From NCBI GenBank assembly GCA_963575745.1, contig CAUYUJ010000011.1:1-64000 (forward strand): a DNA stretch of 64,000 bases. The letters are read 5' to 3'. This DNA is from Prorocentrum cordatum (taxonomy: Eukaryota). The notes under the pieces are model-generated. The model ran no database searches and had not been told where the DNA came from. It saw only the letters and a list, made by a program, of their open reading frames with translations. Made by a program: the position numbers and the translations under genes. Positions 20,151 through 43,471 of this stretch are shown here, piece by piece (position 1 is the first letter of the stretch; every line of letters begins with the position of its first letter).

Positions 20151-21637
20151 CCTGACCAGACAAGAACGGGAAGCGCCATTTGTGCTCGTAGGGGTGTTTG
20201 TCGTTGTGGAAGCACGAGGACGAGGTGGAGAATGGCGTTCAAAGCCATGGACGTCATCGTTCATCCCAGACGGCTGGGGATGCCGAAAGCAGCCTTCGGA
20301 GGCAGAAAAGTTAGGAGAACATCCCCAGGCCGTGGCACGCAAATGAAGACGACGACGATGGACGACGGACGAGTGGCGACCACGACGGCGGCGGCGGCTG
20401 CAGCGGCGGCTGTGGAGGAGGAGGATAAAAAGGAGGATGAGGAGGGGGAGAGGATGAGGCAGACAAGGGAGGACGAAGGGGTAAAGGCGACGCCTTTGGG
20501 GTTCCTTGCGAACCGCCTTCGGGGTGTTCGGGGCGTGCGGGCGCAGCTTTGGGGTTCCGTGGGGGTTCGTGCAGAGCAGTAGTGTCGCTCTAGGCCACGC
20601 TGGGAGCTGTGTGGGGCAGTCTATGGGGTTCTAGGCGCTTTCTGTATCGCTGGCGCGTCCTTAGGGTGGTTTTGGGGGCTTTCCAGGCGCCTCTTGGAGG
20701 CCTCCTGGGGTGCTTTTGGGCCCATGTTCGTTCAGGTTCTTACCCAGCACCGAATTTTTGAGGATGGCTGGAGCAAAACGGCCTTTTGGTTTGCCGCGTT
20801 GGTCTGACGTGCTGGTCGAACCAGCATGCTCTCCGACCAGCATGCTCTCGGCGCGTGATGGACCTGGTGGGCCGTTTGGGGCTCCTCGGGCCCTCTTGTG
20901 GTCTTTAGGGCGCCTTTTGAAAGGCCTGTGGGTTATTTTTTTGGAGCTTCTCAGGAATATCTTTGGCCCCTGAGATTGTCCCGGCGCTCCTGGAGAGTAT
21001 ATGCGGGCATTCTCTTGGGCCATCTTGGCGTTCTCTGGGGCCGTCTTGAGGTTGTCGTGGGTGATATGGGAGTTTCCTCTGGCATTGTTGGTGCTCTGTG
21101 GGCGCCTCTCAGGCGCTCTTCTTCGCAAAGGTGTGGACGGTTGATTCGTGTACTTGTCGTCGCTGACGTCATCTTATTTGCTGACGCATTTCCTTTCGTA
21201 GTGGCTTCCGTTTTCTTCATTATTGTCTTCGTCCCCGTGCTCGTTTTTCTCGTCGTCGTTTTTTCGTTGTCGATTGCAGGATTGACGGGAATAAGTCATT
21301 CGCTATGCGCACAAATCGTGGCGTCGGAACGCTGTACGGCAGCAACAGCATGCTCGTAGGAACGCCTCCGCAGGGAATGCAAGTGCAGTGGCAGGTGGCT
21401 TTGCGATCAGTTCGCCAAGCGATTACATTCTGCGTATTCGTGAAGTAGAAATGGTGGTGCGTTTGCGGCTGCCCAGAAGGACGTCTGTGCCTCCGTGGAT
21501 GGGTGCGCGTGGGCGCTGGCACGATGTGAAATACGTAGTTCAGCACCTCTGAAATGAAAAGGCTCGTCCCACCACAGGGAAATCCAGAAAGGGTAGTCGT
21601 CGCGCTGGCTACACGTGTTGTATAAGCAAGTTGACGC

Positions 21638-21807
21638 CTGGTTCGGGGGTTCCGAAACGTGACGAGGGCCAAGGCAGTTTGGGCTTCTCGCGCAGCAGCA
21701 GGTGAGCCTCGAACCGTCGGGCGCAAGAGCCCGAGGGTTCAAGACGGGGCTGCCCGGAGGGAGTAGCCATGACGTCCCTGGTCCAGTTCGATTTGGGAAC
21801 CCCAGGC
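21638..21807 (-). other. Predicted intron (GC-AG, phase 0, 170 nt) with terminal inverted repeats
   Basis: GCACAG|GCCTGG...AACCAG|GCGTCA joins NRLLAQ to ASTCLYN..FWISLWWDEPFHF, supplying the missing OTU His strand. Stop at 21407. Confidence 0.75.
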
Positions 21808-24800
21808 CTGTGCCAGTAATCTGTTCCGGAACAAGAAGATGCCGATGTCGAGGGCTTCGCTGAGGCTGTTGACGTCTGTTTGTGTGCCCCAGTGCATATT
21901 TCCAGGCTGGGCCATGCAAGCTGCAATGCTTTGTCGAAGGTGCTGCAGTCGCGCCGTGCCGTCTGGTATGCTGATCAGGCTTTCGTCGCGATCGCGCCCT
22001 CCTCGTCGCGCAGCTGTCACGGCCACCCGGGCAACGGCACTCCCGTCGGATCTTTCCTCGAACGCGAGCACGCTCTCCACGTGCGCGAGGCAGTCCAGAG
22101 AGCACTGGCGAAGAACATCGAGTGGAACCCACAGGTCTTCATGCATCCCCGCGCGGTGCTGCATACAAGCGGACACTACGAAGTCAAGCACTTGCTCCGG
22201 TGTCCAGCGAAAGTATATGCGAGCGGACAGTTGTCGGAGTGCTCGCATGACGGCATCCTTGCCCTGGAGGAAAACTCGCGATGATAGAGTCTTCAATATG
22301 TGGCGCGCAGGTGGGCCACCAGCGACGACCATGCGAGCTAGCACTCCAGCGATGCTGTAGAAGAGGCAGTCGCCGCCGCCGCCGAACTCGACGCTGTGCA
22401 CGGACATCGTGGAACAACTGGAAGATCCAACTTTTGCAACGCGGGTGCAAAGTGCGTCTGACACGGCGTGGGTGGCGCCAAGTGCCCACTGCAGTCGGGC
22501 GCGCGAGTTGGACGCAGGTGATAGCAGGAAGTAGGGGCACCGCTCGTTGTCGACGCAGCACTCCGGCGAGCCGCATTCGCCGCACGGGCGGACGGGTGCA
22601 GACGACGGAACCATCGACGGCGAGGTTGCGCTCGGAGACGGCGTTCGTGTCGTCGGTGGTGCCGCGTCGAAGAGAGCGTCGTCAATCGGTGCTGGGTGCC
22701 TGGACTGCGCCTGATGGCCAGTAGGTGCATCGACTGCCATTCCTGGGACAGAATCCTGCGCTATGGGCGGCGGCGGCACCTGCGCCGCGGTACTCTCCGT
22801 TAGCCGCGGCTTCTTCAATGGGGGCAGCGCAGACAATGTCTTGGCTTGCTCCGCCGCGCTGCCGCCGGCGTCCCTCGTGTCTCCTGCCCGCGGCAGCAAC
22901 GTTGGCGGCGGCGTCTTCCCGCGCGTTCGACGAAGCACACTGCGGCCCTCCTCGGAGCGCGAGGGCGGCGGCAAAGCTGTCGCGCGCCGCTGGTGTCTTG
23001 CAGGGCGGTTAGCTCGGAATGAGGCTACCCGGGATGCCTGGCGCGACGCGCCATCGCTCGCGAGGACGTGGTCCATCAGGTCGTCGGGCAAGGCATCTCC
23101 AGTCATGTCCCGCAAAGTGCGGATGAGGTCATCGAGCGACGACGTCTCCATGTCGGCCAGCCTTGTAATCTCGTCTAGCAGGAACTTCGGTGGCTTTCGG
23201 GAAAGTTCTCGCCTGGTTGCCGGGCGTAGGATGAAAAGGCTCTCCACGGAGATTGCGCGCGAGAGCATCACGTAGCACGCCAGCCAATGCGTATCTGCGT
23301 CCATGGAAGGCGGCTTCTTCATGTCAGCCACCACGGCTACGCATGTGCCCCCCTGAGCTCCGTACACAATAATCGTATCTGCTGGCAATAAACGGTAAGT
23401 AGTGCGGCGGACAGAGAAGTGCTCCTCCTCCCACGCCGCGCGCAAATGCCCGCACGTCGGTCTCATTTGAAACAAGCCGCGCCGGTCCGTGCAGGTTGGG
23501 AGGTCCGCAGCCAAGTCGGCCGCAGGAAGTTCCCAGTCGCCGCCGTCAGCCTGCAGCCAGAGGGAAACGGGCATGAACTGTACGTGCACGACGTTCTCGT
23601 CCACTGGGCCCGACTGGAACGGCTCCCCGCTGGCGAAGACAATGCGGCGGAGCGTGCAGACGCAGCCCTTCATGGGGCCCAGCCGCACGCAGTCTTTGGA
23701 GCACATAGTCAGGCGCATTCCGATGTACAGTGGCAAAAGACTCGGCAAGTCCTGCGTATCTTTCGGGCTAACCCTCTGCAGGAGGTCTCTATGGACCTGT
23801 TCTGTCATTTTGTGAGCGTCGGCGGGGTCCACTGGCTCGTCGCGGGCTTGGACCACGTAGAGGCGGCGGCCCGTCCGCAGTGCTTGCTGTTTAGCGTGCT
23901 GCATTGATCGGTAGACGCGAATCTTGTGCCTGTGGACGATGTATGTCCAGGGGTGCGTGGAGAAGAGCGACGCGGGATCGCGCGGGCGGGTGTCCTCGGA
24001 AGATAGTATGCGACTGGTGTACAAGGCCCACATCGCGTCCGAGATGTTGCCAGCACGCATCTCCGCCAGCAGCTGGCTGAGTGGGCCAGGGGCGCGGGCG
24101 TTCACTTCCAGCGTCACCACCTTCCGGACGCGGCGCCACAGCTGCAGTCCTTGCACCGTCTCCACGTGCTTAGACCTCTTCTTGTCCCCGTCCTGTTCCT
24201 GGTCGTATTCGCCCTTCTCATTCAAAACGTCAACCTCGTCCAGGTCCGTGGCGAGGCTCCTGTTGTCGCCCGTCGGGTCGGCTGGTGGGAGCTGCATGAA
24301 GTCCCCGGAGAACGTCATGCCCAAGCCGCCCCAAGCCTGGGTGGAGCTCTTGGCCGCCTTCAATCGAGCCTCTGCCTGGAAGAGCTGGGCTGCTGCGACC
24401 ATGGACACTTCGTCAATGAAGCACGCGAGGGCGCCTTCCCAGCGGCTCCGGTGGCTCTCCAAGACAGTGCGCGTGAGGCGACCTTTCTTACTGGACACGG
24501 TCACGCTGCCAAACGGTAGTTTGCACAGTGCGTGCAGTGTGTCCCCTTTCAGAAGCCTTGCCGCCGAGTTCGATGGCGCGCATTTCTGCTCTGTGTCTGG
24601 GCCGTTGAAGTAGCAGATGACTGCTTCGACGACTCTCAGAACCGCCGTCTTCCCAGTGCCTCCGGGGCCCATGAGTGCGAGCTGAAACCCGTCTGCCAAA
24701 GACGGTCGCCCTGTGACAGTCGGCCCAGAGGGCTCGTCGAACCCCCACGCGCGGTTCATGACGTCCTGTAGCCAAGCAGCGTTCCAAAGCAGCGCGCGCG

Positions 24801-27150: not shown

Positions 27151-27277
27151 CTGGTCCGCGACAAGATTTCCTGCACGGCCTTGATAGACCACTCCCCGCT
27201 GTCGACGCTGGGGTCGGAGGAGAAGGACGTCGGGAAGAACGCGAACTCGGCGACGTTGCCGGCGCACGCAGCGGGTC

Positions 27278-27617: not shown

Positions 27618-30600
27618 CTTCGAGGCCCCGCCCATGCCACTGGGCGGCGTTGCTGGCGGCCGTGCGAACGCCCCCGATCTTCTCGCGCTGCGATTTCGTC
27701 AACGGCAGCAACGGCAACTGTTGAAGGGCGGCATGTCCGAGCGGGTCCTTCGCGTAGTGAGCGAACGCCTCCGTGCTGCGGAACGTTATAGAAGCGATGT
27801 AATGCCAGGCGCGTCGGAACGTGTTCTGCAGGTGGTCGCCTTGGAAGAGGTCGTCAGGGTGAGAGAATCCAACGAGCTGAATGAGCATGTGGATGTGCAG
27901 CGCTTTGCGCATCTGTCCTTCCGCAACGCCGAGGTGCGCCCGAACGTGCCCGACGATGCCGGGCAAACTCTTTGCGGCGATCCCGTCGCAGTTAAGCTCG
28001 TCGGGCGCACCAGTGCAGTTGAACAATGCGCGCATGACGAGCCGCACGGTCCAGTGGAAGACGCGCGTGGCAATGAGCGGGTCCTTCGCCACAGCTCGGT
28101 GAAGGCGTCGCGGGTCCTCCTGGTTGAAGTCGGTCATCCACTGGGTTGCCTTGTCGTCGGTCATGTCCAGGGAGAACTTGCGGGACGCGGTCGCGTCGTC
28201 CTGGGCCAACAGCACAGTGAGGGGGCCCCGAATGTCGCGCGGGTTCAGGGCGAAGAAGAGCGATGCGCATCCAGACCATATGCGCAGAGTCCGGAATCGC
28301 CAGATGAATCCTTCTCGCTCCTCGGCGGATCCGCGGACACGTCGGAGTGCGAGGGGCATCCGGTGAGCGGCGTTGCGGACGACGGGATCGAGCCCTTGCT
28401 GTCGAAGCAGATCTCGGAGATTGGCCGCGCCCCCAGCGGCCGCGGCGGAAGAGACGAGGCCTTCAGCAGTGAGCTGCGCGAGCGCAGTGGTTTGGCCCGG
28501 TGTCATGCCAGCGATGCCGTCGCTGGCCGTGGACTTCACGTGGGCCTCGACGCTGGCCATCTGGTCGCGCCGCAGGAAAGTGTTGAACAGCGTGGCCACG
28601 AACTCGACGTCGCGGCGCCAGCAAACAGTCTCGGCTCGCGTGAGCAACGTCTTCGCCCACGTTGCTGCGGGCAGGCGAGCGGGGCGCTGGGGGCACGTTT
28701 CCTGACAGTCTCCTCGCGGGAAGAGTCGGAGGAAGCATGCCGCCCAGAAGTTCTCGGCCCGCAAGGACAGGAACTGGTCTCCGTGGGCGATCTGCACCGC
28801 AGGCGCGTCGACCTTCTCTTGCGCCGCCCACTCGTCCAACTCCCTCCGGACAGAGTCGCGGGACATCCGTTGCACTGCCTCGACTGCTTTGGCGAGGGCT
28901 TCATTGCGCCGCATCTTCATCTGCGCGCGAGCGGATGAGTCGTGGCCCTCCGACAACTTATGGATCTCATCATGGAGGCGCGATGCAACGTCGAAGTTCT
29001 CCACGACCCGCGTCCGCAAGCGGAGTGCTGGCACGTCGTCCATGCCCCCGTTCACAACGGCGGCGTTACCATCGTCAGCCGTTTCAGTCGGGTCTGTCTC
29101 GCGGGCGCCACTGTCGGTGCAGTCAGCTGGGCCTCCCGACGCCACCGAAGCTTTTGCTGCAGAAGCCGCAGTTGCCGCGGAGAGTACTTCCCGCGGAACG
29201 CCGGAGGAGCTTCCAATGCTGCTGGCGTAGGCACTGAGTAGGGCCTCCAGGGCGGCGTGCAAGGTGCCCGAGCGCCAGATCTCATGGTGCCTGGTGGCGA
29301 ACATGAACATCCAATTGTTGAGGGACAGCCACCGGAACGCCGCGCGTAAGCGGAGAACGGGGGCCTGGAGGTCCGGGTGTCGTTGTAGATCGTCAAACGT
29401 CCCACCCGCGAACTGGATCACCATGGTCTGTGCAAGGGCCGCAGGCAGCATGCCTATGGCAGTCAGTGCAGTGTCGGGGCTCTGCGGGTAAGCCACCACG
29501 TTCTTCTGGTGGTACGTGGGCGCCTCCGAAGTGGCCGTAGGAGCGTCGGGCGCCTTGCTGAGGAACGCGCGTTTGATGCTGACATACACTTTGGCGAGGT
29601 TGATGACCTTGCACTCAGCGTACGTGAGGTCCACGAATTCACGGGGGTCGGCGCCTCTCCACATCCCGTTCGCCAGAGCAGCTAGAGGCACTCGAACTCG
29701 CGGGCGGCGATCGTCACGGGGGCCGATCAGTTCCCGCAGCGCGGACGCGCAATGCTTGCACATGTTCGCCGCGGCGCCGGAGGCGGCGCCCTTGCCGTCG
29801 GCGCTGGACGTCGAAATGCCCGGGCGGCACAGCAGCCAACGCCTTTCGGGGTGGCCGGGCGCAGCAGTGGAGTCCGCCACGAGGTCGGCGCGTACAGCCG
29901 CCGCCAAGCGCTGAACCCTCTCATGCCAGCTTCGAGCAGCATCGGCTGTAGTGAAGCCCAAAGAACTTTCCTCTCCTTTAAGCAGAGCGGCGACGTTGAG
30001 CTCTGCTTCTCGCAGCCACTCACTCTCGCAGAAGATCAGTTCCATGTACCGGTCGACGCTGAAGACGTTGTCCAGCCGCGCGTGCCAAGCGTCCTTGTGC
30101 GCAGTCCAGACGTCGGTGGGCCACTGCGGCCAGTCGGGGCACGCGTCGTCTGAGGGGTCCGGCAGGTACGTCGTTTGGAGTTTGCATCGGCGCTTGTCCC
30201 AGGCGCAGACTGCGCAAGGTGCCATGGTAAAGTTGGCATCGGTGAGCTCCGCTTTGAACGCAGCCAGGCGTGCCCTCACAATTTGAGGACTGATGGGCGT
30301 AGGCCACGCCGTGAGGGATCGTTGAGGTATCACATTCCGGTAGGAGTCCAGTACGTCACACGCGGGGTCGAGCACGTCGCGGTGCATCTCGGCGAGGTGG
30401 GCGGGCAGGTCCTCGGCCCGCACGTGGACGAGACACAAGCGGCAGCATTCGGGGTGTAGGTAATCGGGCGTGGCCGAGCACGCTGGCAACGCATCCTGCG
30501 AGCGGTTCTTCTGCAGAAGCAGTCGAAGAGCTGGTTTTGTGCCGGTCCACGATTGGGCGGGCGGCAGCGAGTCCATGTACGATTCACTTTCGACTTGCAC

Positions 30601-31763
30601 CAGCTTTGCAAGCATGGCGGGCGACTGTCCCGCGAAGCACGTCTGGCAACAGTGCATGTAAGTCCGGGCGTGCCTTGCGGGCCTCTTGCCGCAGATAATG
30701 CAGAGGGTCCCTGAAGCGGTCCAACACGCGTCGCACAAGGCCTGCGAATCGAGGAAGTGCTTGGAACAGAGGGTGCACAAACGGACAGAACGAGGGCAAT
30801 TTGTGGTGGCGCACGGTCCGTGAGAAACAACAAATTTCTCACCGGTGATGGGATCTGCTTCCCGGTAACAGTAGCCGCACACAAGTTCAACAAAATGGCG
30901 GCGTCACAGGCCGGACTGTCTCTCGTCGTCGCTGGAATGAGCGCGGCACCACAGAGCGAGAGTAGTGCACAGGGAACAGCTCGGCAGCGGCGTGCTTGGT
31001 GGAGGCAGTTGCCGACAAATATCACACGCCCGAATGGCTGCACATGCCTTGCACGACCGTGCGGCGTAGAAGTCTCTGTGCGCGGGTGTGGTAGTGCAAT
31101 ATCTGCACAGGCGGCCATCAGCAATCCAGCAATTCCCGCAGGTCTCATTGGGGCTGGACGCCGCGCAAGGTGAGCACAATGGGAAAGTGGAGCCGCATGT
31201 GGACGTAGCGCATGGCGCTCTGGTCATCGACGCACTCGGCAGCGTTGCGCGGCACATGGTGCAAGAGGTCTGAGTCGAGGCGCACGCATGGCACCAACCT
31301 GAAGCGCGCTCGTCGGCAGTCGTGTGCGTGGGGCAGCCCATGGCACATGAAAAGGCGACGGCGTGGGTTTTTTTTGGGGGGCGTCACACATGCGGAGCAT
31401 CTCAGAGGGTGGTCCTCCGAATTGTACCACGTGCACCCGTCCACATGGCAGGCCCTTTGTCGCTCACATGGCTTGCACATGATCTTGCGCACGAGCTCCC
31501 GTGACTCTCCGCAAAAATTGCATGTAGACTTTCGAGCCTGCTGCTTCTGGGCGTATTTTTGGGGGAACAACTTGCGGTAGCACACTTTGCAGTACCCGTC
31601 GTACCCCGTCTGTGCGAATGGTGTGTTCTTTTTGGCGCCGTGGGCTCCTCGGCAGAGCATGCGGCCCTGGGACATGGCGGCCGAAGCGCAGAGTGTCAGA
31701 GTACAGCCCTGGCGACGCGCGGCGCCTTCACGAGAGGCGCCTCCGCAATAGAGGGGCGACACG

Positions 31764-31792
31764 TGACCAATGGTTTGAGCCGAATTTGTACG
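31764..31792 (-). other. Probable tandem relict dinoflagellate spliced leaders upstream of RepHel
   Basis: Minus strand CGTACAAATTCGGCTCAAA (15/20 to CGTAGCCATTTTGGCTCAAG) followed directly by CCATTGGTCA, ~90 nt before the ATG. Confidence 0.55.
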
Positions 31793-33899
31793 TGATGGGG
31801 CATGTTGCGAAAGTCGTGCGTTCGTTCGGGGGGGGGGTCGGCATGTTTCTTCCGCTTGACGCCGCCACTGCGTTGGCCTTGGAAGGGGTACGAAACTGGG
31901 AAATGCGAGAGGTATCAAGATGAGTCCAAGAGACTCAAGATGCTTCCGACACGGCCGAAAAGAGGGCGAACAACACAGGGCCTTAGTCCAGGATTACAAA
32001 GTCAGTCCTTCCGCTCTCCCGCACTCCCTCGCACTCCCGTGCTCTTGCGCAGCCCTGGAGTTGTGAGGATGCCGTAGGCGAAACTTGCCAGATCACCTCT
32101 CCCGCGGAATCTCTGGGCCCAGAGATGCGAGAATGTCTCAGAAGGAACAGGTGGACGATATCAGTGCAGGGCAGCTCTGGTCCCAGAGGTGCGAGGTGGT
32201 TGCAAGCGACACTCACGATCGATCTGTCCATGAGCCTCATTGTGGATCTCACTGTCGATCTCCCTATCGAGGTCACCCCCTCCCCCCCTTCTCGTCCTCC
32301 TCCTTCCCTCGATGGGGTCGAAGGTCGGTCCTCGAGTTTCGAGGATGAGGGGTGGGGGCTCGGCCGCGACTGGCCGCGGGCCGGCGGCTCGCAGGAAGGG
32401 GCAGTCCGAGGGGGCGGCCTTGTAAGAAGGCAGGGGGGCTTTCAGAAGGGGTTTCTTCGAGGTCGGCACGCGCCTCTCAGGAGGCGGAGGAGGACGAGGA
32501 GGAGGAGGACGAGGACGGGGAGGAGGAGGGAGAGGATAAGGAGGAGGAGGGGAGGAGGAGGAGGAGGGGGAGGAGAATGAGGGGGAGGGCGGAAGAGGAT
32601 GAAGAGGAGGGAGGAGGAGGAGGAGGAAGAGGAGGACGAAGGGCGGTGTCCCTTCACGGGGGGGTGAAGAAACGTGTCTCTGCGGCCCTCCAGGGGCCCA
32701 CGCCTTTGTGACAGAACGCTCTTGGAAGTGCAGATCTGCGCACGATTCACACAATCGGCTCGCAGAGGCCTCCACGCGAAGGAACGCGTGTTGAACGCGC
32801 TCACGCCGCGGAAAATGAATCAATACGTATGACCGGGCGTCATCAAGTCGAATCGATCATCATGGACGTTGTGCAAATTCGGATCACCAAAGAGGGCTGA
32901 CTGCCACGCGCGCACACGGAAGCGCGGGAACCGTTGCCAGGACCCCCGCGAGCGGGGAAGGGTCGTTAGCCAGGCAGCACAGCCACAAGCCATCTCAAAA
33001 CGGGGGCTGCTGGACAACGCCAACCATGTACGGCAGGCTCCCGTCGCGACGACGTCGGCGCTGGCTTCTGACACCGCGTGGATCGGTCGACCTTCAACGA
33101 TCGGGACTTCCCGATGAGCCGGATCGTTCAACATATGACGATCCCGGACCATGGGCGGCGTTCCACCTTGAACGCCCGCGGCGCGGAGGAGGAGGGAGGG
33201 AGGGAGGGAGGGCCGAGACTTCCCCAGCAATGCAGGGCAATGGCGAACAGAAAACATTTCGATATAGGTTTTAGATAGGTTCAAAAGTAGGTTCGGGAGA
33301 TAGGTTCGCAAGCATAGTAGGTTCCAGGAAGAAGGTGCAACGCGCGGGGAAAACGTGTCATCGGGCAGATAGCCTCCCGTTACTGGGTTTGCCAAAGCGC
33401 GTCGGCGCAAATGCCGCGGGCAGCTAAGTTGGCGAAGCGAATTCGCCAAACTAGCCCTGGCGAGTGCACCCGGGGACGTTCCCTGGCCGCGGTAACCTCG
33501 CCAAGAAGGTTTGCAATGAAAAACGGCGTCAGGGCTGCATTTCAGGCAGGGGCCGCGACACTTTTCGCGCGATGCACTCTCGGGCACTAAACATAAAAAA
33601 TTAACGAGAGCGGCTGCGGAGAAGACCTCCGAAAACACGACCCTCCAGAAAAGCAGTCACGACGATGGGCGACCCAAAAATCAATTGGGGCAGCCCCAGC
33701 AACTGGCACGGCGAACAACGCAACTCAAGGAATCCCGGACAAGCCGGGCCGCCACCAACAATCACCCCGTACCAATACCGTGCCCCGGCGGGGTTCGGAC
33801 ACGCCATGGCTCCTCCTCATTATCGCGGCCGCCCCGCCCAAGGTCATTCTGCCCTCCCCAAAGCCACTCGTTATCAATCACATCATGCTTCCCATCATC

Positions 33900-33996
33900 G
33901 CCCCCCTTGCCTCACCATCCTCCCCCTCGTCAGCCGCAGCATCCACGTTCTCATCCTCCTGCCCCCGATCCTCCCCGCCCTCCCCGCCCCCCCCTC

Positions 33997-34027
<31 letters not shown>

Positions 34028-34340
34028 TCCTCCTCCTCCCCCTCATATTCCCCATCTCGTTCCTACCTTTTCCCCCTCATCCCCCCTTTCATCCGCCCCT
34101 CATCCTCCGCCCGATCCTCCGGGTCCTCTTGGTCCTCCTCCTCCTACTCCTCTCTCCTGTTCCTCCTTCCTCCTGACCCTCCGTTTCCTCGACCTGGCTC
34201 TCCTCCTCCTCCTCCTCTTCTTCCTCCTCCACATCCTCCTCCCGGCTCTCCTCATCCACCTCCTCCTCCCCCTCCTCTCCCATTCCTCTTCCTCCTCCTC
34301 CTCCTCCCCCACATTCTCCTCCACCTCCTCCTCCTCCTAC
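33900..34340. repeat. CT-rich (TCC)n low-complexity tract
   Basis: Direct inspection. Confidence 0.9.
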
Positions 34341-34374
34341 CTTCAATCCCTGACCTTCCATGCTTCCGAAAACA

Positions 34375-34670
34375 GTTTGAAGTAGGTTTGAAATAGGTTT
34401 GAAGTAGGTTTGAAGTAGGTTCGAAGTAGGTTTGAAGTAGGTTTGAAGTAGGTTTGAAGTAGGTTTGAAGTAGGTTTGAAGTAGGTTTGAAGTAGGTTTG
34501 AAACCTACTTTGAGGCCTCCGAAACCTACTTTGAGGCCCCTAAAACCTATTTTGAAGCCTCCGAAACCTATTTTGCGCTACCGAAAACCTACTTTTGGAA
34601 TCCGGAAACCTTCTTTGGAACCTACTTTGCAAAAACAAATTCTGCAAACCTACTTTCCGACCTACTTTGG
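34375..34670. repeat. (GTTTGAAGTAG)~11 array abutting an inverted degenerate AAACCTACTTT array
   Basis: Junction GTAGGTTTG-AAACCTAC at ~34492-34508. Confidence 0.92.
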
Positions 34671-37379
34671 GGGCGCGGTTCCTTGAAACATCAGCACACG
34701 CTTGCCCGAGCCTTTCCCAGAAGTCGCCCCCGGGGGCGGCGCGCCAAAAAAGGAATCTGCGAAGTACCCCCAGAAGGTGAGCAAACCCAAAACACTTGTA
34801 GGTTGCCCCCGACAGGCGGGAGCCCCCCAAAGGGGGCGGTCTCCCCCCCCCCCCGAGGGTCGAGGATCGAGCGCGATTTCGCTGTCGGGCGACAAGCGAA
34901 CGTACCGCGACAGGACAGGGCCTTTTGGCAGCCCCCCCGCTGGCGGGCAGGGGGCCGCCGCCTGGCGCCCTAGGTTCTTCAGAAACCAAACCTGATGCGG
35001 CCGCCCCCCGCCCCCCGGGGCCCCTCCGGGCCCGGCCCGACGGAGGCGCCACTCCCCTTCCGTTTCTCTTTCCTCCTCCCACCTCTCTCCACCTCCTCTC
35101 CTCTTCCACGCGCCCTCATTATTCCAGCCTCCCTCCACCTCCCCCCCCCGGAAACGCCACCTCCCCCCTACCCGCCTTCTGGAGCCCCCCACCCTCCCGT
35201 TTCTGACCTTCTTAACCTTCCTGGTCCTCCCTCTCGCCCCCCCCCCCTCTCCCTTGCTCGGGCCCGCGGCCCTCGCCCCGCCCTCCATGCCCCACTTCCC
35301 GCTGTGGTCAGACCAAGGGGGAAACGCAATGCCCCCAGATCTCAGGACGGAGGTGGTTTAGAGCGCTTCCTGTTCCAACAACCCCCAGTCTTCCCTTCGG
35401 GGATGGATGCGCCCCTCCCCCCCCTCCTTCCGGGGCCTGCAATGGGGGGCGGCGGATCGGTGGAGCGCCCGGGACGGTCAAAGATAGAGCCGGCATGACC
35501 TCGCAGAATGCAACGCGGTCTCACAGATGGTTCAAGATAGCCCAAGATGGATCAACATTGTTTCCCGCATGCTCCAAGAAACCCAAATACCGCTCCGAGA
35601 CCGCCCCAAGCGGCCGCGGAGCCACCCAATAACACCCCCGAGAAGCCGAAATCTTTCCAAATCGTACGAGACACGAATGAATTGGGCCTTTTGGTCCATG
35701 CGCTTCCGAAGACTTTGGAAGCCTGAAGATAAGCCCCGAAGGAGTCCAGAAGAACCCAAGACAGCGCACTTCACGAATTACTCGGCTGGCTTGCTAGCAG
35801 AAGCCGCGCCTTGCCGGCGGCATTCCAGCATTTCCCCGAGAAGCTTGTTTGGAAAATATCATTACTGACCCGATCCCGACAAGTTACTTTTGATATTGTG
35901 TTCCCGGCAACCTTTCCTGGAAAGCTACTTTTGCACATGAATGTCGCATTCCTTTCCCCTGAAAGTTTCTCGCGGCAATCGGTTTCGCCATCCTTTCCCT
36001 TCGAGTTACCTGCGCCGACCACTGTTGCCAGGCGCGCTGCAGACCTACTTCGCCGACCTACTTCAGGAGCTACTCTAAACCTACTTCATTTGTTTTGCGC
36101 CTCAAACAAGCCCTGCATTCAAAGGGAAGTCTCGGAGGGAGGGAGGAGGAGGAGGAGGAGGAGGAGGAGGAGGAGGAGGAGGAGGAGGACGAGGAGGAGG
36201 AAGAAGGGGAGGGGGAGGAGGAGGAGGTCCTCCCCAGGGGCAGCCTTCCGCCCCGGATCCGTCTCCGACGGAGGAGGAGGAGCAGCAGGAGAACGCCAAA
36301 GAGGTAAGGCCGGGCATCGAATCGAAATGAAACCCAAGGGCCAAAGGAATGTGGCATCGCATGCCGCAAACCTTGATGGGATGACTGCGACGGTTGGCGA
36401 TGTTTTTTTTTCTCACGTTGCGCATTGGGAACACAACAGCCCTAGGAGGCAGGCCGGTTCAAGGTCCCACCTCTTTTTGTTATGTTTTTTGGTTAGGGGC
36501 TGCTCTTTAAAATGCGGGTGATGCTCCGCGCCGCCATCACAAAACAAAGCTACGCGCACGCACCCATCAGAAAGAGGCACGGGGTGAACAAGTGGAGGCG
36601 AATATGGGAGAGCGCGCTCAACGGGAACAAGGCACCCGAACAAAACCCTTCACGCATTGGATCGTTTCGAAAAGCAGCTGTCGCCGTAACGCCGCGCATG
36701 TTTGTTTTGAAAGGGTCCAGCAGTGGCACGGATGGACGGCGGTGCTGTTTGAAAGCGCAGCTCTCGCGTTAGCGGCGCGCACAGTCGGTTGAACAAATGC
36801 AACAATCGCACGGGTTCGTACGGTTGAACCCTCCAGGCATGGTGCCTTGGAACGAGTTCCCATTGACAGGATGGAAATGTCCCAAGGATGCGAAGGGTGT
36901 ACGTTTCCAGGCATGGGATTATGGTGGGAATTAAGGTATCAGGACGGAACCGTCCCAATGAGTCGTGGGGTTCAAGTCCTCAGAATTCCAATTCTGATTG
37001 TGTGCGGAACGGGGTTCGCCCGTGCGACGTCGTGAAGTGATACTACTAGGGCTACCGAAAGGAGCATTCTTCGGCCGATAAGGGTTATTTCTTGGGGAAA
37101 GGTCAAGGGGGCGGTCGATTTGCGATGGCTCTTGGTTCTGTGGTGGTGTCTTCGTGCCTAGCATTGTCGCGCACATCTGCCCGTCTGTCTATCTTTGTAT
37201 ATATCGGTTTCCCTTTGTATCTATTGTTCGAAATCCCTATCGTACTACGTATATGTATCAATATATATATATATATATGTATATATGGACAGCCCCCCCC
37301 CAGCGCCCATTCTTGGCCTCTGGTGCTTTGGCAATGTTATACGCTCCTCTTCCTTTCCTCCTCTCTCTCTCTCTCTCCC

Positions 37380-37417
<38 letters not shown>

Positions 37418-37419
37418 CC

Positions 37420-39110
37420 CCCCTGTGCGCTTCAGAAGAAGAGGAGGACGACGAGGAGAAGGAGGAGGAGGATGAGGAGGAGGGGGAGGAGCTGGAGGAG
37501 GAGAAGGAGGAGGGGGAGGAAGAGCAAGAGCGACAGAGAGGAACACAGAGAGGGACACAGAGAGAGACTGAGGGAGAGGTAGAGAAAGGTGGAGAGAGAG
37601 AGAGAGAGAGTTGAGGGAGCAGCGATCCCTGTAGAATCACAGGGTTAGCGTCGTCAGGGGTCGCCCAAACCCTGTGTTTTCATTTGGATGTTTGGGATTT
37701 CTGGGATGAGAATCAAGGAAACCATGTGTTTTCATTGAGTTTTTTTTGGATTGTTGGGATTTTCTCTTCCCAGAGAATAACAACCCAGGAGCCTCCGAAG
37801 CTTCAGAACCTTAGAAATCCCAACAATCCCAAACACCCAAATGAAAACACATGGTTTCCTTGATTCTCATTCCAGAAATCCCCAACATCCAAATGAAAAC
37901 ACAGGGCTTGGCGACCCCTGACGTCGCTAATCCTGTGATTCCGCAGCGATCGCTGCTCCCTCAACTCTCCCTCTCTCTCTCTCTCTTTCTCTCCCCCCCC
38001 CTGTGCGCTTCAGAAGAAGAGGAGGACGACGAGGAGAAGGAGGAGGAGGAGGAGGAGGAGGAGGAGCTGGAGGAGGAGAAGGAGGAGGGAGAGGAAGAGC
38101 AAGAGCGACAGAGAGATGAACACAGAGAGGGACACAGAGAGAGACGGAGGGAGAGGTAGAGAAAGGTGGGGAGAGAGAGAGAGAGAGAGAGAGAGAGTTG
38201 AGGGAGCAGCGATCCCTGTGGAATCGCAGGGTTAGCGTCGTCAGGGGTCGCCAAACCCTGTGTTTTCATTTGGATGTTTTGGATTTCTGGGATGAGAATC
38301 ATGGAAACCATGCATTTGCATTGGGATTGTTGGGATGCTTTGGACTTTCTCTTTCCAGAGAATAACAACCCAGGAGCCTCCGAAGCTTCAGAACCTTAGA
38401 AATCCCAGCAATCCCAAACATCCAAATGAAAACACATGGTTTCCTTGATTCTCATCTCATAAATCGCAAACATCCCAATAGAAACACAGGGTTTGGCGAC
38501 CCCTGACGTCGCTAACCCTGTGATTCCACAGCGATCGCTGCTCCCTCAACTCGCCCTCCCCCTCTCTCTCTCTCTCCACCTGTGCGCTTCAGAAGAAGAG
38601 GAGGACGACGAGGAAAAGGAGGAGGAGGAGGAGGAGGAGGAGGAGCTGGGCCAGGAGGAGGAGAAGGAGGGGGAGAAAGAGCAAGAGCGACAAAGGAGAG
38701 GGACACACAGAGAGACTGAGGGAGAGGTAGAGGAAGGTGGAGAGAGAGAGAGAGTTGAGGGAACAGCGATCGCTGTGGAATCACAAGGTTAGCGTCGTCA
38801 TGGGTCGCCAAACCCTGTGTTGTCATTGGGATGTTGGTGATTTTTGGGATGAGAATGAAGGAAACCATGCGTTTTCATTTGGATGTTTGGGATTTGGGGG
38901 ATTTTCTCTTCCCAGAGAATAACAACCCAGGAGCCTCCGAAGCTTCAGAACCTTAGAAATCCCAGAGATCCCAAACATCCAAGTGAAAGCACATGGCTTC
39001 CTTGATTCTCATCCCAGAATCCCCAAAAACCCAAATGAAAACACAGGGTTTGGCGACCCCTGACGTCGCTAACCCTGTGATTCCACAGGGATCGCTGCTC
39101 CCTCAACTCT
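37420..39110. repeat. Tandem trimer (~560-590-bp period) of ~350-bp fold-back units (37611-37964, 38198-38549, 38755-39106)
   Basis: Each unit TTGAGGGA(G/A)CAGCGATC...GATCGCTGCTCCCTCAA has ~150-bp inverted arms around a conserved ~50-bp loop. Units are separated by a conserved GAG-rich linker. Confidence 0.93.
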
Positions 39111-39190
39111 CCCTCTCTCTCTCTCTCAGAAGTTGAGGTCAACGACCGATGCAAAATCGATGGGCGCTGGGGCTGGGGGGGGGGGGGGCT

Positions 39191-39194
<4 letters not shown>

Positions 39195-39239
<45 letters not shown>

Positions 39240-39387
39240 ATAGGGACATATATATATATATAGACGTGCTTCTAAACACATTTGTATATACAAATTTACA
39301 TATATATGTATGTATGTCTACATGATTATATATATATGTATATATGCACACATGTCTATAAACCGGTCGTTCAAAAAGGTAACCGTA

Positions 39388-39426
<39 letters not shown>
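39195..39426. repeat. (TA)n-rich microsatellite
   Basis: Direct inspection. Confidence 0.95.
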
Positions 39427-39429
<3 letters not shown>

Positions 39430-39489
39430 AATGTATGTTCACATCTACACTTCCGACTAATATGTTTGTATAGGTATATGTCAATCAAG

Positions 39490-40760
39490 ACATCCATCAG
39501 GACAACCATGCCGGCACCCATGAGGGCAACCATCGGGGCAAGCAACGGGACAACCAGGAGTACAAAATCGGGAAAACCATCGGGGCAAACATCGGGACAA
39601 CCATCGATACAAACGTCGGAACAGCCATCGGGGGAACCATCGGGGCAACCACCCGGACAACCATCGGGGCAACAAACAGGACAACCATCGTGACAACCAT
39701 CGGGACAAGCATCGGGACAACACCTATCAATCGGGACAACTATCGGGAGAACCATCACGTCGGGACAACCGTCGGGCTAACCATCGGGACAACCATCGGG
39801 ACAACCATCCAGGCAACCATCGGGACAACCATCGGAACAATCTGCGGGACCCATCTGGACAATCATCGGATCAACCATTGGGACATTCATCGGGAGAGCC
39901 GTTGGGGCAACCATCCGAAACAACCGCCGTCGGGACAACCATCGGGAGAACAATCGGGAGAACCTTCGGGACAACCAGTGGGACAAACATCGGGCAAATC
40001 TTCGGGACAATCATCGGGACATTCTTAAGGGCACCCATCGGGACAACCATTGGGACAACCACTGGGGCAACCACCGGGACAACCATCGGGACAACCATCG
40101 GGGCAATCATTGGGACAGCCATCGGGGCACCCCCTATTTATATGGACAACCATCAGGAGAACCGTCACATCGGGACCATCGTTGTGTCCAACCATCGGGA
40201 GAACCATCGGGGAAACCATCGGGACAAACATCGGGACAACCACCGGGATAACCATCGGGACAACCATCGGGGCAACCACCATCCATCAGGACAACCATCG
40301 GGGCAGCCATCAAATCGGAACAGTCATTGGGCCAACCATCGGGAGAAACATCGGGCATGCCGTCGGGGCAAACAACCAGGCAACCATCGGGACAAGCGTC
40401 GGGACAATCATCGGGGCAACCGTCGGGGCCACCTTCGGGACAACGATCGGGACAACGATCGGGACAACCATCGGGCCAACCATCGGATCAACCATCGGGA
40501 GAACCTTCGGGGCAACCATCAATAGAATCACCAGGACAACCATCGGGACAACAATCGCCATCGGCAGAACCACTGGGACAACATTCGGGACAACCTCAGG
40601 ACGACCATCGGGACGCCCGTCGGAACAACCATCGGGACAAACATCGGGGCAACCATCGGCGCCCATCGGGGGAACCATCGGGAGAACCGTCGGGAGAAAC
40701 ATTGGGGCAACCATCGGAGCAACCATCGGGGCAGCCATCGGGAAAACATCGGCACAACCT
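39490..40760 (+). repeat. 12-bp minisatellite (ACAACCATCGGG)n, degenerate
   Basis: Direct inspection. Confidence 0.95.
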
Positions 40761-41065
40761 GGAAGGCGCGCTTGGGGGGGCGACCTTTAGGGCTCCATGG
40801 GCACGAACCAAAACCGAAACCGATGTTCCAGTTGGAATCGCTTCCGTTTACATTCCTTCCAACCGCCGATGTACACTCATGAAGGACGGCCCCGTATTAG
40901 AACGGCACGGGCCCAGCAGCGGCGGTGGCTGAGGACGGGCCGCGGTTGGATGGCGGAGTGCAAGAAGGATGTAAGAGGGCGGGGCAGAGACGAGAATCAG
41001 AGGGTGGAAGAGGGGCAAGCACTCGGGAGGCGCGACCAAGACAGGAGAGTTGCGTCGGGGCGGGT

Positions 41066-42802
41066 TCACTCTGCGATGCTCGCGGGGCCACAGAACGTCT
41101 TGTGGATCCGCTTGGCGGTGGGCCCGAAGAAGTCGCTGAGGTCGTCGTCGGCCTTGCGCTTGGCGCGCGTGAGGCGGTTGGTGAAGACGTCTGTCGCCGC
41201 GGCAATTTCTGTCGTGAACGCGTCGGGGTCGATGCCGGGCGCAAGCTTCCACATGTCGGCGACAGTGAGCTCGGAGTCCGTCGCGTTGACGAAAGTGACC
41301 AAGCATAAACGCCCGGTCCTTTTTGGTCAAGGCGTGCCGGCCCAGACGCCTTGTCGGACAAGCCGTGGTCACCTTCCAGGCAGTCTTCTGCTCGGCGTCG
41401 GTCTCCGCTACGTCTGTGACGTAGTTGGTGATGGCGAAGCCGTCGTCGCGCGGGGTGGCATCTGGGTCCTTCGCGGCCTCGACGAGTAGGATGGCCCCGC
41501 TGGTCAGGAACCGCGCAGGGCCGATAGTGACGCAGAGCTTCCCCGTGGCACTCATCGAAATGGAGCGGGCTGTAGTCGGGCCAAGGCAGCTGTCGTTCTG
41601 CGGGGCGAGCAGTGGCGCGGTGACGTCGAAAAGGCAAGGCTCTGCACACACGATAGCAAGGCGCGGTTCGTTAACCTGGTCGCCCTTGGCGCCAGGGGAG
41701 GCAGCCAGCGTTGCGCGGACGCGTGCCCGAGACCACGTCATGGACCCTTGCGCGACCTCGTCTTGGAACTCGGCCTTGTCAGCGCACCCCGTCAACGCGA
41801 GGGCAGCCGCCTCCGTGATCTTAGCGTCGACCGAGCCGGTGTAGTCGGACATGCGCACGGACGCCCACGCGCGGTCCCCGGCCTTGGTCAGCAAGTTCTC
41901 CGTGTCGCTGAGGGAAAAGGATGCGGCGGGGATTTCGAACAGCTTATCCGGAGCCACGGCCTTGCTGTGTAAGAGCATGTCCAGAATTGCCGACGTGGAA
42001 CTCACGGCGGGCCCATCTTTGTAGTTCGTGGAGTCGCACGCCGAGAGGCTGGTCAGGTCGTCCTTGGCGATGTCTCGGACGCCAGCGGCAAGCATCACTG
42101 CCACTTTGGGAGAGGAGCCTGTGGGCTGGGTGAAAATGGTGGAGCTGCGCACTGTGAGGTGGGCGCCGCCGTTGTCGGACTTCACAAGGTACGCACCGAA
42201 AATGTAGACAGGCTCCTTGTTGTGAAGCTGCTGTGCCTGCGGGACGGACTCCTCCCAAAACTTCAGGGCGATGGCGTTTTGGATGCATCGCACACGGAGG
42301 ACACCACCAATTTCTTGCCCTTGAATGTGCCTTCGGTGGAGATGTCGGTAACGAAGCCGTAGAGGTCAACTGCTTGGTCCTGGGACAGTTCAAATACGTC
42401 GTGAATGCCCATGGAGGGCTCCACTTCGTTTGGCAACTTGTTCGCCTGCTGGGGCGGCAAAACTTTGGCGACCATGGTTTTGTTGGTCAGCTGCAAGACG
42501 CAGGGGTGCGGACTGCCGTGGAAGGCGTCTTTCTTGCGCACCATCGTCAACTTGGATAGAGCCCACGACGACCTGGGGGTCCACTTATCCGTCAGAGCTT
42601 TGGTTGTCCGGGCGCGCGCCGCGGGGGTGTCGCCCCAGACCATCTGCTCGGCGATGTAGTAAAATCCTGATTCACTGACCAGCACGCAAGTGAAGACGTC
42701 TGCGTTCTTTTGGGTTGTGTGCACCTTGGGGTTGAACACGCGCACGTGCACAACCTTGGTCCCGCAGTTGCGTTTGCTCACGGTCTCCAGCTTGTCCGCC
42801 AT
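41066..42802 (-). pseudogene. RPA1/RPA70-like multi-OB-fold ssDNA-binding protein, intronless, two frameshifts
   Basis: ATG 42802 (GCCATGG). VHVRVFNP..VFTCVLVSESG (DBD-A-like); AVDLYGFVTDIS..VCDAS / IALKFWEE..PVYIFGA..LTVRSSTIFTQP (DBD-B-like); VRMSDYTGSVDAKITEAAALALTG (DBD-C-like). Frame changes near 42280 and 41305. Confidence 0.75.
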
Positions 42803-42819
42803 GGCAAGGTAACCGCTGG

Positions 42820-43320: not shown

Positions 43321-43378
<58 letters not shown>

Positions 43379-43434: not shown

Positions 43435-43471
<37 letters not shown>

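What the first reader, a model, noticed from the sequence alone, without database searches (positions are those of the whole stretch)
21407..42802. Possible >21-kb rolling-circle system: RepHel plus its own co-oriented RPA1-like ssDNA-binding gene
Seen: an intronless RPA70-like gene lies ~9.4 kb upstream of RepHel on the same strand, shows similar frameshift decay, and no other gene was recognised between them. It starts directly at a DBD-A-like fold, and I saw no obvious DBD-C zinc-finger cysteines. Known: plant Helitrons carry RPA70-like genes, and rolling-circle transposition makes ssDNA. Inference: a Rep + helicase + deubiquitinase-like + SSB module in a dinoflagellate would be an independent capture or an undescribed large element. 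I could not identify the element termini, so linkage is unproven.
Basis: inference. Interest (0 to 1): 0.78.

Follow-up and report, generated by a model that had tools for sequence, protein, structure and literature searches.

The report
RPA-like pseudogene near a decayed Helitron

Summary
On the minus strand, 42802-41066 is an uninterrupted but twice frameshifted copy of a Prorocentrum cordatum gene family. A profile of that family hits human RPA70 DBD-A/B (E 9e-12). A confident AlphaFold model (pLDDT 86.6) aligns with RPA70 A-B-C (Z 20.7), followed by an RPA32-like fourth OB fold (Z 13.0). The protein has no N-terminal OB-F domain and no conserved cysteines. The RepHel gene (30903-21739, minus strand) has DUF6570, a Rep domain and a PIF1 helicase, so it is an HLE2-type Helitron.

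The interpretation, one element of more than 21 kb, is not shown. The 10.2-kb spacer is satellite DNA with no recognisable gene. No termini were found. The 248-bp direct repeats that bracket both genes belong to a hugely abundant repeat. None of 51 metagenomic RepHel loci carries an RPA-like gene. RPA upstream of RepHel is already a described HLE2 layout, so even if the two were linked this would be a new member of a known kind. I put the single-element reading at about 0.2.

The parts
41066..42802 (-). Frameshifted copy of a four-OB RPA70-like gene (annotated model P0002). The ATG is at 42802-42800 and the stop at 41068-41066. The frame changes at about 42280 and about 41300.
   Evidence: family identity
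21739..30903 (-). Decayed RepHel gene of an HLE2-type Helitron, about 2800-3000 aa. Frames run -2, -3, -1, -3, -2. Stretches 27282-27624 and 26906-27149 are not matched by the paralogue P0114.
29305..29694 (-). DUF6570 domain, which one paper (PMC11417382) proposes as a marker of HLE2.
   Evidence: E 6.9e-13; residues 404-533 of ORF 27586-30903; PMC11417382 passages
27880..28428 (-). Rep (Helitron_like_N) domain.
   Evidence: E 5.9e-12; residues 826-1008 of the same ORF
24262..24684 (-). PIF1-type helicase, P-loop part.
   Evidence: E 2.9e-12; residues 114-254 of ORF 21739-25023; the A5 profile hits PIF1 structures and Helraiser
21742..22473 (-). C-terminal region with a conserved Asp/Cys/His pattern (GDCLF...H). 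It is possibly OTU-like, but this is unverified.
   Evidence: no support
30904..41065 (.). Spacer with no recognisable gene. It holds AGG/CCT microsatellites (32479-32636, 33993-34338), an 11-nt array (34375-34502), three units of about 575 bp with inverted repeats of about 180 nt (37387-39127), TA-rich simple sequence (39182-39450) and a 12-nt satellite (39489-40759).
19903..20150 (+). Left copy of a 248-bp direct repeat, 97.6% identical to the copy at 43971-44216. It belongs to a very abundant dispersed repeat and is not an element terminus.
43971..44216 (+). Right copy of the same 248-bp repeat.
   Evidence: bin 43677-44343: word depth 353,490 in X1, against 20-42 over the two genes
42821..43139 (.). 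The 5' flank of the RPA-like gene plus a microsatellite. It is duplicated at 43658-43970 (87-88% identity, spacing 837 bp).

Best explanation
The interval holds two separate relics. The first is a decayed autonomous HLE2-type Helitron gene: a zinc-finger-rich N-terminus, DUF6570, an HUH Rep domain, a PIF1 helicase and a Cys/His C-terminal domain. The second lies 10.2 kb away, across satellite DNA. It is a dead copy of a dispersed multi-copy gene family of Prorocentrum cordatum.

That family encodes a single-chain ssDNA-binding protein of four OB folds. OB1 and OB2 resemble RPA70 DBD-A/B. OB3 resembles DBD-C without the zinc ribbon. OB4 plus a C-terminal helix resembles RPA32 DBD-D. An intact member would coat ssDNA as one polypeptide, without the OB-F recruitment domain; that is inference from the fold.

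The window's copy was probably duplicated as DNA after it had already been damaged. Its annotated model skips the same segment as two 99%-identical neighbouring copies elsewhere. I take the juxtaposition with RepHel to be adjacency in a repeat-rich region, not a shared transposition unit.

Shown: the identities of both genes, their decay, the lack of genes between them, and the lack of any detectable co-occurrence elsewhere. Inferred: that they are independent, and how the RPA-like copy was duplicated.
For: RPA identity:
- The family profile hits RPA70 DBD-A/B at E 8.9e-12.
- The AF2 model has pLDDT 86.6.
- The top Foldseek hits are RPA70 chains 9pd4_N (E 2e-19) and 4gop_C.
- VIA-align gives residues 1-400 against RPA70 183-609 at Z 20.7, and residues 404-545 against RPA32 43-171 at Z 13.0, rmsd 2.5.

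Family size:
- 15 annotated P. cordatum copies, counting the window's, fall in two deep clades with near-identical dispersed members.
- 92 representatives have E<=1e-3 among 1.84 billion proteins.

Against linkage:
- The 13 contigs holding the 14 other RPA-like copies and the 14 contigs holding the 14 RepHel relatives share no contig length. That includes the 3 closest RepHel paralogues, P0008, P0114 and P0130.
- 0 of 51 metagenomic RepHel loci (260,705 bases) has an RPA-like match by tblastn with up to 93 family proteins or by an HMM of A1, which did find the window's own three pieces. Eleven of those loci have the RepHel N-terminus plus 1.3-10 kb of upstream sequence.
- The spacer has no gene and is made of tandem arrays.
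- The bracketing 248-bp repeats belong to a repeat with word depth 353,490, against 20-42 over the genes.
- The flanks of the two genes share no similarity.

Copying after damage: P0002 (window), P0003 and P0109 share the junction KKL|AQQLHNKEP. P0003 and P0109 are 548/554 identical and have adjacent accession numbers.
Against: - The layout (RPA ORF upstream of RepHel, same strand, nothing coding between) is the one reported as enriched in HLE2 (PMC11417382 passages).
- Both genes are about equally diverged from their closest paralogues. RPA is 89-91% identical to P0001, P0003 and P0004. RepHel is 91% identical to P0008 and 80-92% per segment to P0114.
- With only about 15 RPA-like copies annotated in a genome of about 4 Gb, chance adjacency to a RepHel within 10 kb is unlikely beforehand.
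- The contig test has no positive control. The window's own RepHel was not retrieved as an annotated protein: no hit on a contig of 119,609 bases appears. Unannotated RepHel remnants could therefore lie beside other RPA-like copies. Contigs were also matched by length only.
- Most metagenomic loci have short flanks. Only L004 reaches 10 kb upstream.
- Rice Mothra shows that RPA-only and RepHel-bearing Helitrons of one lineage can coexist (PMC4683698 passages). That would explain unlinked copies.
- Element ends were not found for either gene, so no boundary separates them.
Confidence: 0.5

Rival explanations
1. One large HLE2 element, at least 21 kb long, carries both genes. The upstream RPA-like ORF would coat the displaced single strand during rolling-circle transposition by RepHel. 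The 10-kb spacer would be internal tandem-repeat expansion and nested insertions. The window would then hold a rare full-length copy.
For: The genes are co-oriented with RPA upstream, as described for HLE2. DUF6570 marks the RepHel as HLE2. No other gene lies between them. Both are about 90% identical to their closest paralogues. The RPA-like family is non-canonical, multi-copy and dispersed. Tandem-repeat blocks inside Helitrons have a precedent in Mothra.
Against: No termini were found. The only inverted repeats of 13 nt or more between the flanks number four, which is chance level, and none brackets both genes sensibly. Folding of the 3' flanks is no better than shuffles (z 1.01 and -0.27). 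The bracketing 248-bp repeats are a genome-wide abundant repeat. None of 14 other RPA-like copies shares a contig with any of 14 RepHel copies. None of 51 related RepHel loci carries an RPA-like gene. Three full-length RepHel contigs (L013-L015) are 8.8-9.4 kb long with only 64-255 bases upstream.
Confidence: 0.2
2. The RPA-like gene sits on its own short non-autonomous Helitron-type element, about 2-3 kb long. It would be an RPA-only derivative like the rice Mothra mother element, mobilised in trans by RepHel elements, and it landed near this RepHel independently.
For: The family has dispersed near-identical copies. P0023, P0150 and P0151 lie on three contigs, and P0007 and P0113 on two. Copies seem to have multiplied after damage. 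There is a precedent for RPA-only Helitrons. Earlier notes of this scan record abundant Helitron-like non-autonomous elements in this genome; I did not check those notes.
Against: No Helitron-type ends or hairpin were seen beside the gene. Its flanks share nothing with the RepHel flanks. P0003 and P0109 are neighbours, which fits tandem or segmental duplication as well. Multi-copy genes are common in dinoflagellates (my own knowledge).
Confidence: 0.15
3. The RPA-like family is an ordinary host gene family, a lineage-specific RPA1 paralogue. The window's copy would be intact, with its two 'frameshifts' being homopolymer errors of the assembly.
For: Both frame changes are single-base indels in short runs (AAAA at 42280-42277, GG at 41300-41299), read. 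Six group-2 copies are full length (555-591 aa). Intact homologues at 33-37% identity exist on short contigs from other sources. UniRef names P0005 and P0007 'Replication protein A subunit'.
Against: The annotators' models of three copies skip the same segment, which suggests a real shared lesion. P0001 and P0006 have other skipped segments. The copy number and dispersal exceed what the Mothra paper reports for core RPA, which is usually single-copy.
Confidence: 0.1

Closest known systems
Helentron / HLE2 Helitron-like elements that carry a separate RPA ORF, for example mite and Drosophila Helentrons (Thomas et al. 2014, PMC4067079, passages read) and HLE2 'subgroup a' (HELIANO paper, PMC11417382, passages read)
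   Same: The RepHel has DUF6570, Rep and PIF1. An intronless RPA70-like ORF with DBD-A/B lies upstream on the same strand. A Cys/His C-terminal domain may correspond to the OTU proteases of these elements.
   Different: Here the two genes are 10.2 kb apart across satellite DNA, no common termini were found, and there is no co-occurrence in other copies. No AP-endonuclease domain is present. The RPA-like protein has four OB folds (583 aa in the intact paralogue), against 358 aa with DBD-A/B in the mite element. OTU identity is not verified.
Rice DHH_Mothra mother element and its sister family, which carry plant Helitron RPA (PHRPA) (PMC4683698, abstract and passages read)
   Same: This is a Helitron lineage in which some elements carry only the RPA-like gene and others carry RPA plus RepHel. 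It also has internal tandem-repeat blocks. It offers a model for unlinked RPA-like copies.
   Different: Mothra elements have defined shared termini; none are defined here. The paper finds PHRPA only in monocots and dicots.
Eukaryotic RPA70 (human RPA70 in 1jmc, 1fgu, 9pd4_N; Ustilago RPA70 in 4gop_C) and RPA32 DBD-D (2pi2, 1l1o, 1quq)
   Same: The tandem DBD-A/B match is significant by profile (E 8.9e-12) and by structure (Z 19.8-20.7). A third OB aligns with DBD-C. A fourth OB plus a helix aligns with RPA32 43-171 (Z 13.0, rmsd 2.5).
   Different: There is no OB-F domain and no conserved cysteines for the DBD-C zinc ribbon. All four OB folds are in one chain. Pfam scores stay below the gathering cut-off (REPA_OB_2 13.7-23.4 bits, against 27). 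The gene is multi-copy. Stn1 scores as well as RPA32 for OB4 (Z 13.5), so the RPA32 likeness is at fold level only.

Membership tests
RPA70 (RPA1) large subunit | Tandem ssDNA-binding OB folds DBD-A and DBD-B | tested here: met
   Positions 21-226 of the A1 profile align with human RPA70 199-401, E 8.9e-12. Model residues 1-246 align with 1jmc_A 183-420, Z 19.8, rmsd 4.0, 227 residues aligned.
RPA70 (RPA1) large subunit | DBD-C with a four-cysteine zinc ribbon | tested here: not met
   A third OB aligns with RPA70 up to residue 609. No cysteine column is conserved in A1 (36 sequences) or A2 (9 sequences).
RPA70 (RPA1) large subunit | N-terminal OB-F protein-interaction domain | tested here: not met
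   Model residue 1 aligns with RPA70 residue 183. The protein starts MADKLE, 16 residues before the first strand of OB1.
RPA70 (RPA1) large subunit | Reaches Pfam gathering scores for RPA families | tested here: not met
   REPA_OB_2 scores 13.7 and 16.9 bits in P0005 and P0007, and 21.3-23.4 bits in 3 of 30 other members; the cut-off is 27. No other RPA family was hit.
RPA70 (RPA1) large subunit | Forms a heterotrimer with RPA32 and RPA14 | not testable with these tools
   Not attempted. The fourth OB resembles RPA32 DBD-D, which may make a partner unnecessary; that is inference.
HLE2 (Helitron2/Helentron-type) Helitron-like element | RepHel with HUH Rep, PIF1 helicase and the DUF6570 marker | tested here: met
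   The marker status of DUF6570 comes from PMC11417382 passages.
HLE2 (Helitron2/Helentron-type) Helitron-like element | 12-16-nt terminal inverted repeats, a 3' stem-loop, and insertion between T and T | tested here: inconclusive
   There are four exact inverted matches of 13 nt or more between 16.5-21.8 kb and 30.8-46 kb, which is chance level. Folding of the 3' flanks is no better than shuffles. No other copies were available to align.
HLE2 (Helitron2/Helentron-type) Helitron-like element | AP endonuclease fused to RepHel (Helentron in the strict sense) | tested here: not met
   No Exo_endo_phos hit in the RepHel ORFs of the window or in P0114, P0009, P0013 or P0016.
HLE2 (Helitron2/Helentron-type) Helitron-like element | OTU-like cysteine protease | tested here: inconclusive
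   Asp/Cys/His columns are conserved in a 4-sequence alignment. There is no Pfam hit at E<=0.1 and no PDB hit by profile. The AF2 model is unusable (pLDDT 38.7).
HLE2 carrying its own RPA gene | RPA ORF upstream of RepHel on the same strand | tested here: met
   RPA at 42802-41069 and RepHel at 30801-21808, both on the minus strand.
HLE2 carrying its own RPA gene | Both genes recur together in other copies of the element | tested here: not met
   None of 14 other RPA-like copies shares a contig, judged by length, with any of 14 RepHel relatives. None of 51 metagenomic RepHel loci has an RPA-like gene. Power is limited: the window's own RepHel is not among the annotated hits, and most flanks are short.
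HLE2 carrying its own RPA gene | Both genes lie inside one pair of termini | tested here: inconclusive
   No termini were identified. The 248-bp bracketing repeats are a genome-wide abundant repeat.
Plant Helitron RPA (PHRPA) | Groups with the PHRPA clade in a phylogeny | not tested

The most novel reading that the evidence does not exclude
The window preserves a rare full-length dinoflagellate HLE2 of about 21-24 kb. Its upstream ORF is a single-chain, zinc-less, four-OB RPA: A-B-C fused to an RPA32-like D. That would be a self-sufficient ssDNA coat for rolling-circle transposition. The unlinked copies elsewhere would be RPA-only and RepHel-only derivatives, as in rice Mothra.
Probability: 0.2. 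Interest if true: 0.55.

Novelty: new member of a known kind. Interest (0 to 1): 0.35.

Why it matters
If the two genes were one element, this would extend the known HLE2-plus-RPA architecture to dinoflagellates and add an unusually complete single-chain RPA to it. That would be useful for asking whether Helitrons need their own ssDNA coat. My searches listed no paper that links Helitron RPA genes with dinoflagellates.

As it stands, the solid result is more modest. P. cordatum and unnamed marine sequences hold a sizeable family that Pfam does not recognise: 92 representatives of four-OB RPA70-like proteins without OB-F or a zinc ribbon. Whether mobile DNA carries that family is still open. 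The locus itself is a pair of relics.

Tried and rejected
- **Own genome.** It is not held, so the direct co-occurrence and flank-alignment test could not be run.
- **248-bp repeats as termini.** The direct repeats 19903-20150 / 43971-44216 (97.6% identical) are rejected as termini. Their bin has word depth 353,490 in X1, and many contigs begin there after a GTA microsatellite. Their outer and inner flanks differ.
- **14-nt inverted match.** The match 17901-17914 / 32058-32071 is at chance level and would exclude the RPA gene anyway.
- **Retrogene idea.** No spliced-leader relic was found: there were 2 matches with 3 mismatches elsewhere in the window, and 44 of 100 shuffles gave as many. No poly-A tract was seen either.
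- **Hairpins.** Folding downstream of either gene gave z 1.01 and -0.27.
- **Shared flank sequence** between the two genes: only chance-level short matches.
- **RPA-like loci in JGI metagenomes.** A3 found none.
- **RPA-like genes in viral contigs.** None with A3, P0018, P0041 or P0045.
- **OTU identity of the RepHel C-terminus.** Pfam found nothing, the PDB profile search found nothing, and the AF2 model had pLDDT 38.7 and is unusable. This stays unresolved.
- **Sequencing runs.** No RNA holder was listed. The laid contigs show paralogous pieces over both genes (88-96% identical) but none that bridges them, and depth cannot rank the genes.
- **ESM Atlas.** It returned only generic OB-fold ssDNA-binding families.
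- **GC3.** Similar in RPA (0.79), RepHel (0.72-0.76) and the LINE (0.85), so it does not discriminate.
- **Rfam.** No family matched.
- **Earlier notes of this scan.** There were none for this place or these sequences.
- **mSphere nucleus paper (PMC10449503).** Term passages only were read. It does not mention RPA or Helitrons.
- **Not attempted.** Complex prediction was not used. Supplements of the HELIANO paper, which may give the RPA-to-RepHel distances, were not opened.
Full report
**What is there.** The window comes from Prorocentrum cordatum; the name comes from the database hits. No whole genome is held for it.

The first gene is on the minus strand. An ATG at 42802 opens a reading frame that tblastn with the intact paralogue P0005 (583 aa) follows colinearly: 42802-42287, then 42278-41292, then 41356-41069, in frames -1, -3 and -1. 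The stop is at 41068-41066. There are no intron-sized gaps. There are two frame changes.

I compared with the paralogues by eye. The first change looks like one A missing from an A-run at 42280-42277. The second looks like one extra G at 41300-41299. Both sit in short homopolymers, so I cannot exclude assembly errors. The annotators' model of this gene (P0002, 535 aa) bridges both places as if they were introns.

**Is it RPA70-like?**
- Single sequences say almost nothing. The window's own pieces get no Pfam hit at E<=10 and only noise in the PDB. P0005 and P0007 get sub-threshold REPA_OB_2 hits of 13.7 and 16.9 bits, against a cut-off of 27.
- An exhaustive HMMER search with P0005 found 92 representatives at E<=1e-3 among 1.84 billion proteins. 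Of the 30 longer ones scanned, 3 had sub-threshold REPA_OB_2 hits and 27 had nothing.
- A profile of 36 members (A1) hits human RPA70 at E 8.9e-12. Profile positions 21-226 align with residues 199-401, which are DBD-A plus DBD-B. It also hits the Ustilago RPA70 and archaeal SSB/RPA OB domains.
- AlphaFold2 on P0005 with that alignment gave mean pLDDT 86.6.
- The top Foldseek hits are RPA70 chains: 9pd4_N (E 2e-19) and 4gop_C (E 1.4e-17).
- VIA-align places model residues 1-400 on RPA70 183-609 (Z 20.7) and residues 1-246 on 1jmc_A 183-420 (Z 19.8, rmsd 4.0). Residues 404-545 fall on RPA32 43-171 (Z 13.0, rmsd 2.5), with Stn1 equally good at Z 13.5.

The protein is therefore four OB folds in one chain. 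It starts at the DBD-A equivalent, so there is no OB-F domain. No cysteine column is conserved, so there is no DBD-C zinc ribbon. It is not the canonical host RPA1.

**The RepHel gene.** ORF 27586-30903 (minus strand) has DUF6570 (E 6.9e-13) and Helitron_like_N (E 5.9e-12). ORF 21739-25023 (minus strand) has PIF1 (E 2.9e-12).

The P. cordatum paralogue P0114 (2790 aa) maps to 30801-21808 in five pieces, in frames -2, -3, -1, -3 and -2, at 80-92% identity. Two window stretches, 27282-27624 and 26906-27149, have no counterpart in it.

According to the HELIANO paper, DUF6570 marks the HLE2 clade. The same paper says HLE2 elements can carry EN, OTU and RPA genes, with RPA enriched upstream of RepHel (PMC11417382, passages read). 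Thomas et al. describe Helentrons with a separate intronless RPA ORF holding DBD-A/B, and with OTU-like proteases (PMC4067079, passages read).

No AP endonuclease is present here.

The C-terminus (21742-22473) shares Asp, Cys and His columns with three metagenomic relatives. But Pfam, a PDB profile search and a failed AF2 model (pLDDT 38.7) give no support for calling it an OTU protease.

**Between the genes.** From the RPA stop (41066) to the first RepHel residue (30801) is 10.2 kb. I scanned 57 stop-to-stop ORFs of at least 100 aa that overlap 30904-41066, leaving out the RPA ORF itself. Only low-complexity matches appeared: PT repeat and glycine zipper on the translated 12-nt satellite, and SR-25 below its cut-off.

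The spacer holds:
- AGG/CCT microsatellites and an 11-nt array;
- three units of about 575 bp with inverted repeats of about 180 nt;
- TA-rich simple sequence;
- a 1.27-kb 12-nt satellite.

**Search for ends.** A 248-bp direct repeat, 97.6% identical, brackets both genes at 19903-20150 and 43971-44216. I took it seriously as a possible terminal feature or head-to-tail junction. When contigs from four public runs were laid on 25001-45000, the bin that holds it had a word depth of 353,490 in X1. The bins over RepHel had 24-38 and those over the RPA-like gene had 20-42. Hundreds of contigs begin at 43920-43969 behind a GTA microsatellite. It is therefore a copy of a hugely abundant dispersed repeat, and the outer and inner flanks of its two copies differ.

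Other checks also found nothing:
- Exact inverted repeats of 13 nt or more between the two flank regions number four, which is chance level.
- The sequences downstream of either gene fold no better than shuffles.
- The flanks of the two genes share nothing.
- No spliced-leader relic is present.

**Linkage elsewhere.** The RPA-like family has at least 15 annotated copies in P. cordatum.
- Group 1 is 89-91% identical to the window: P0001, P0002 (the window), P0003, P0109 and P0004.
- Group 2 is 57-63% identical and mostly full length: P0005, P0111, P0112, P0006, P0007 and P0113.
- A second deep clade holds P0020, P0023, P0150 and P0151.

The quick tree supports this grouping; the careful search did not finish.

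The 14 copies outside the window lie on 13 contigs. The 14 RepHel relatives I could retrieve from P. cordatum lie on 14 contigs. No contig length is shared, and no accession numbers are near each other on one contig. This includes the three closest RepHel paralogues: P0008 (91%), P0114 and P0130 (83%).

The test is weak in one direction. The window's own RepHel did not appear among the annotated hits, so unannotated RepHel relics beside other RPA-like copies would be missed. In the other direction it is somewhat better, because the window's own RPA-like pseudogene was annotated and retrieved.

A scan of JGI metagenomes with a RepHel alignment gave 51 loci totalling 260,705 bases. Neither tblastn with up to 93 family proteins nor an HMM of A1 found an RPA-like gene in any of them. 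The HMM did find all three pieces in the window. Eleven loci hold the RepHel N-terminus plus 1.3-10 kb upstream. Only L004 reaches 10 kb, and that stretch holds LINE-like ORFs. Three full-length RepHel contigs (L013-L015) are 8.8-9.4 kb long with 64-255 bases upstream.

Scans for RPA-like loci in metagenome and viral contigs found none.

**How the window's copy arose.** P0002, P0003 and P0109 share the same model junction, KKL|AQQLHNKEP, which skips the segment where the window has its first frameshift. P0003 and P0109 differ at 6 of 554 residues and have consecutive accession numbers on one contig. The simplest reading is that a copy already damaged there was duplicated as DNA, in tandem or segmentally, or on a passive carrier. 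Recurrent slippage in the A-run is an alternative.

**Verdict.**
Exceptions: the distance is 10.2 kb, not 9.4 kb, and the 'deubiquitinase-like' label is unverified.
The gene is a genuine, non-canonical RPA70-like ssDNA-binding gene in the position that HLE2 elements are known to use. But nothing ties it physically to this RepHel, and the tests I could run lean towards independence.
- My estimates: 0.5 for two separate relics; 0.2 for one large element; 0.15 for an RPA-only mobile derivative; 0.1 for an ordinary, possibly intact host paralogue.
- Even the linked reading would be a new member of a described architecture, not a new kind of system.
- The most interesting residue is the protein family itself: a single-chain A-B-C-D RPA-like protein without a zinc ribbon. 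It is widespread among unnamed marine sequences and invisible to Pfam.

Noticed in passing
window 3-5730 (+): Two overlapping long ORFs of a non-LTR retrotransposon. There is a weak endonuclease/exonuclease/phosphatase match (E 0.031), then reverse transcriptase (E 9.5e-6) and RNase H (E 1.5e-7).
   Followed up: no
window 43920-44713, and 19903-20150: A member of an extremely abundant dispersed repeat rich in CCAAGA-type motifs, often preceded by a GTA microsatellite. The word depth is 353,490 in one run against about 25 for neighbouring genes. Most copies join 44206 to 44687, so this copy carries an insert of about 480 bp.
   Followed up: partly
window 17212-17423, 17914-18094, 18098-18253: Three separate near-perfect palindromes of about 160-220 nt (76-82% self-complementary), side by side. 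They look like foldback or hairpin elements.
   Followed up: no
window 37387-39127: Three tandem units of about 575 bp (88% identical). Each contains inverted repeats of about 180 nt (85-87% complementary).
   Followed up: no
proteins P0110 and P0115-P0117: Fragments at least 90% identical to the P. cordatum RPA-like gene and RepHel sit in a EukProt transcriptome labelled Pyramimonas sp. CCMP1952. This hints either that both genes are transcribed somewhere, or that the transcriptome holds dinoflagellate contamination.
   Followed up: no
window 47787-49775 (-): A 663-aa open frame with a hydrophobic, multi-pass-membrane-like middle part and no Pfam hit. It is probably an exon-bearing host gene, 5 kb upstream of the RPA-like gene.
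   Followed up: no
locus L004 1-7447: Upstream of a metagenomic RepHel relative lie two long co-oriented ORFs (1477 and 1004 aa). The second starts like an AP-type endonuclease of a LINE, judged by eye.
   Followed up: no
window, about 62.3-62.5 kb: The window contains a run of 100 N, which is an assembly gap.
   Followed up: no
window 21711-21740 (-): Directly after the RepHel stop codon there is an 11-bp-stem hairpin (GAACC.TCGGGC...GCCCGA.GGTTC). I could not tell whether it is a terminal Helitron hairpin or something else.
   Followed up: partly
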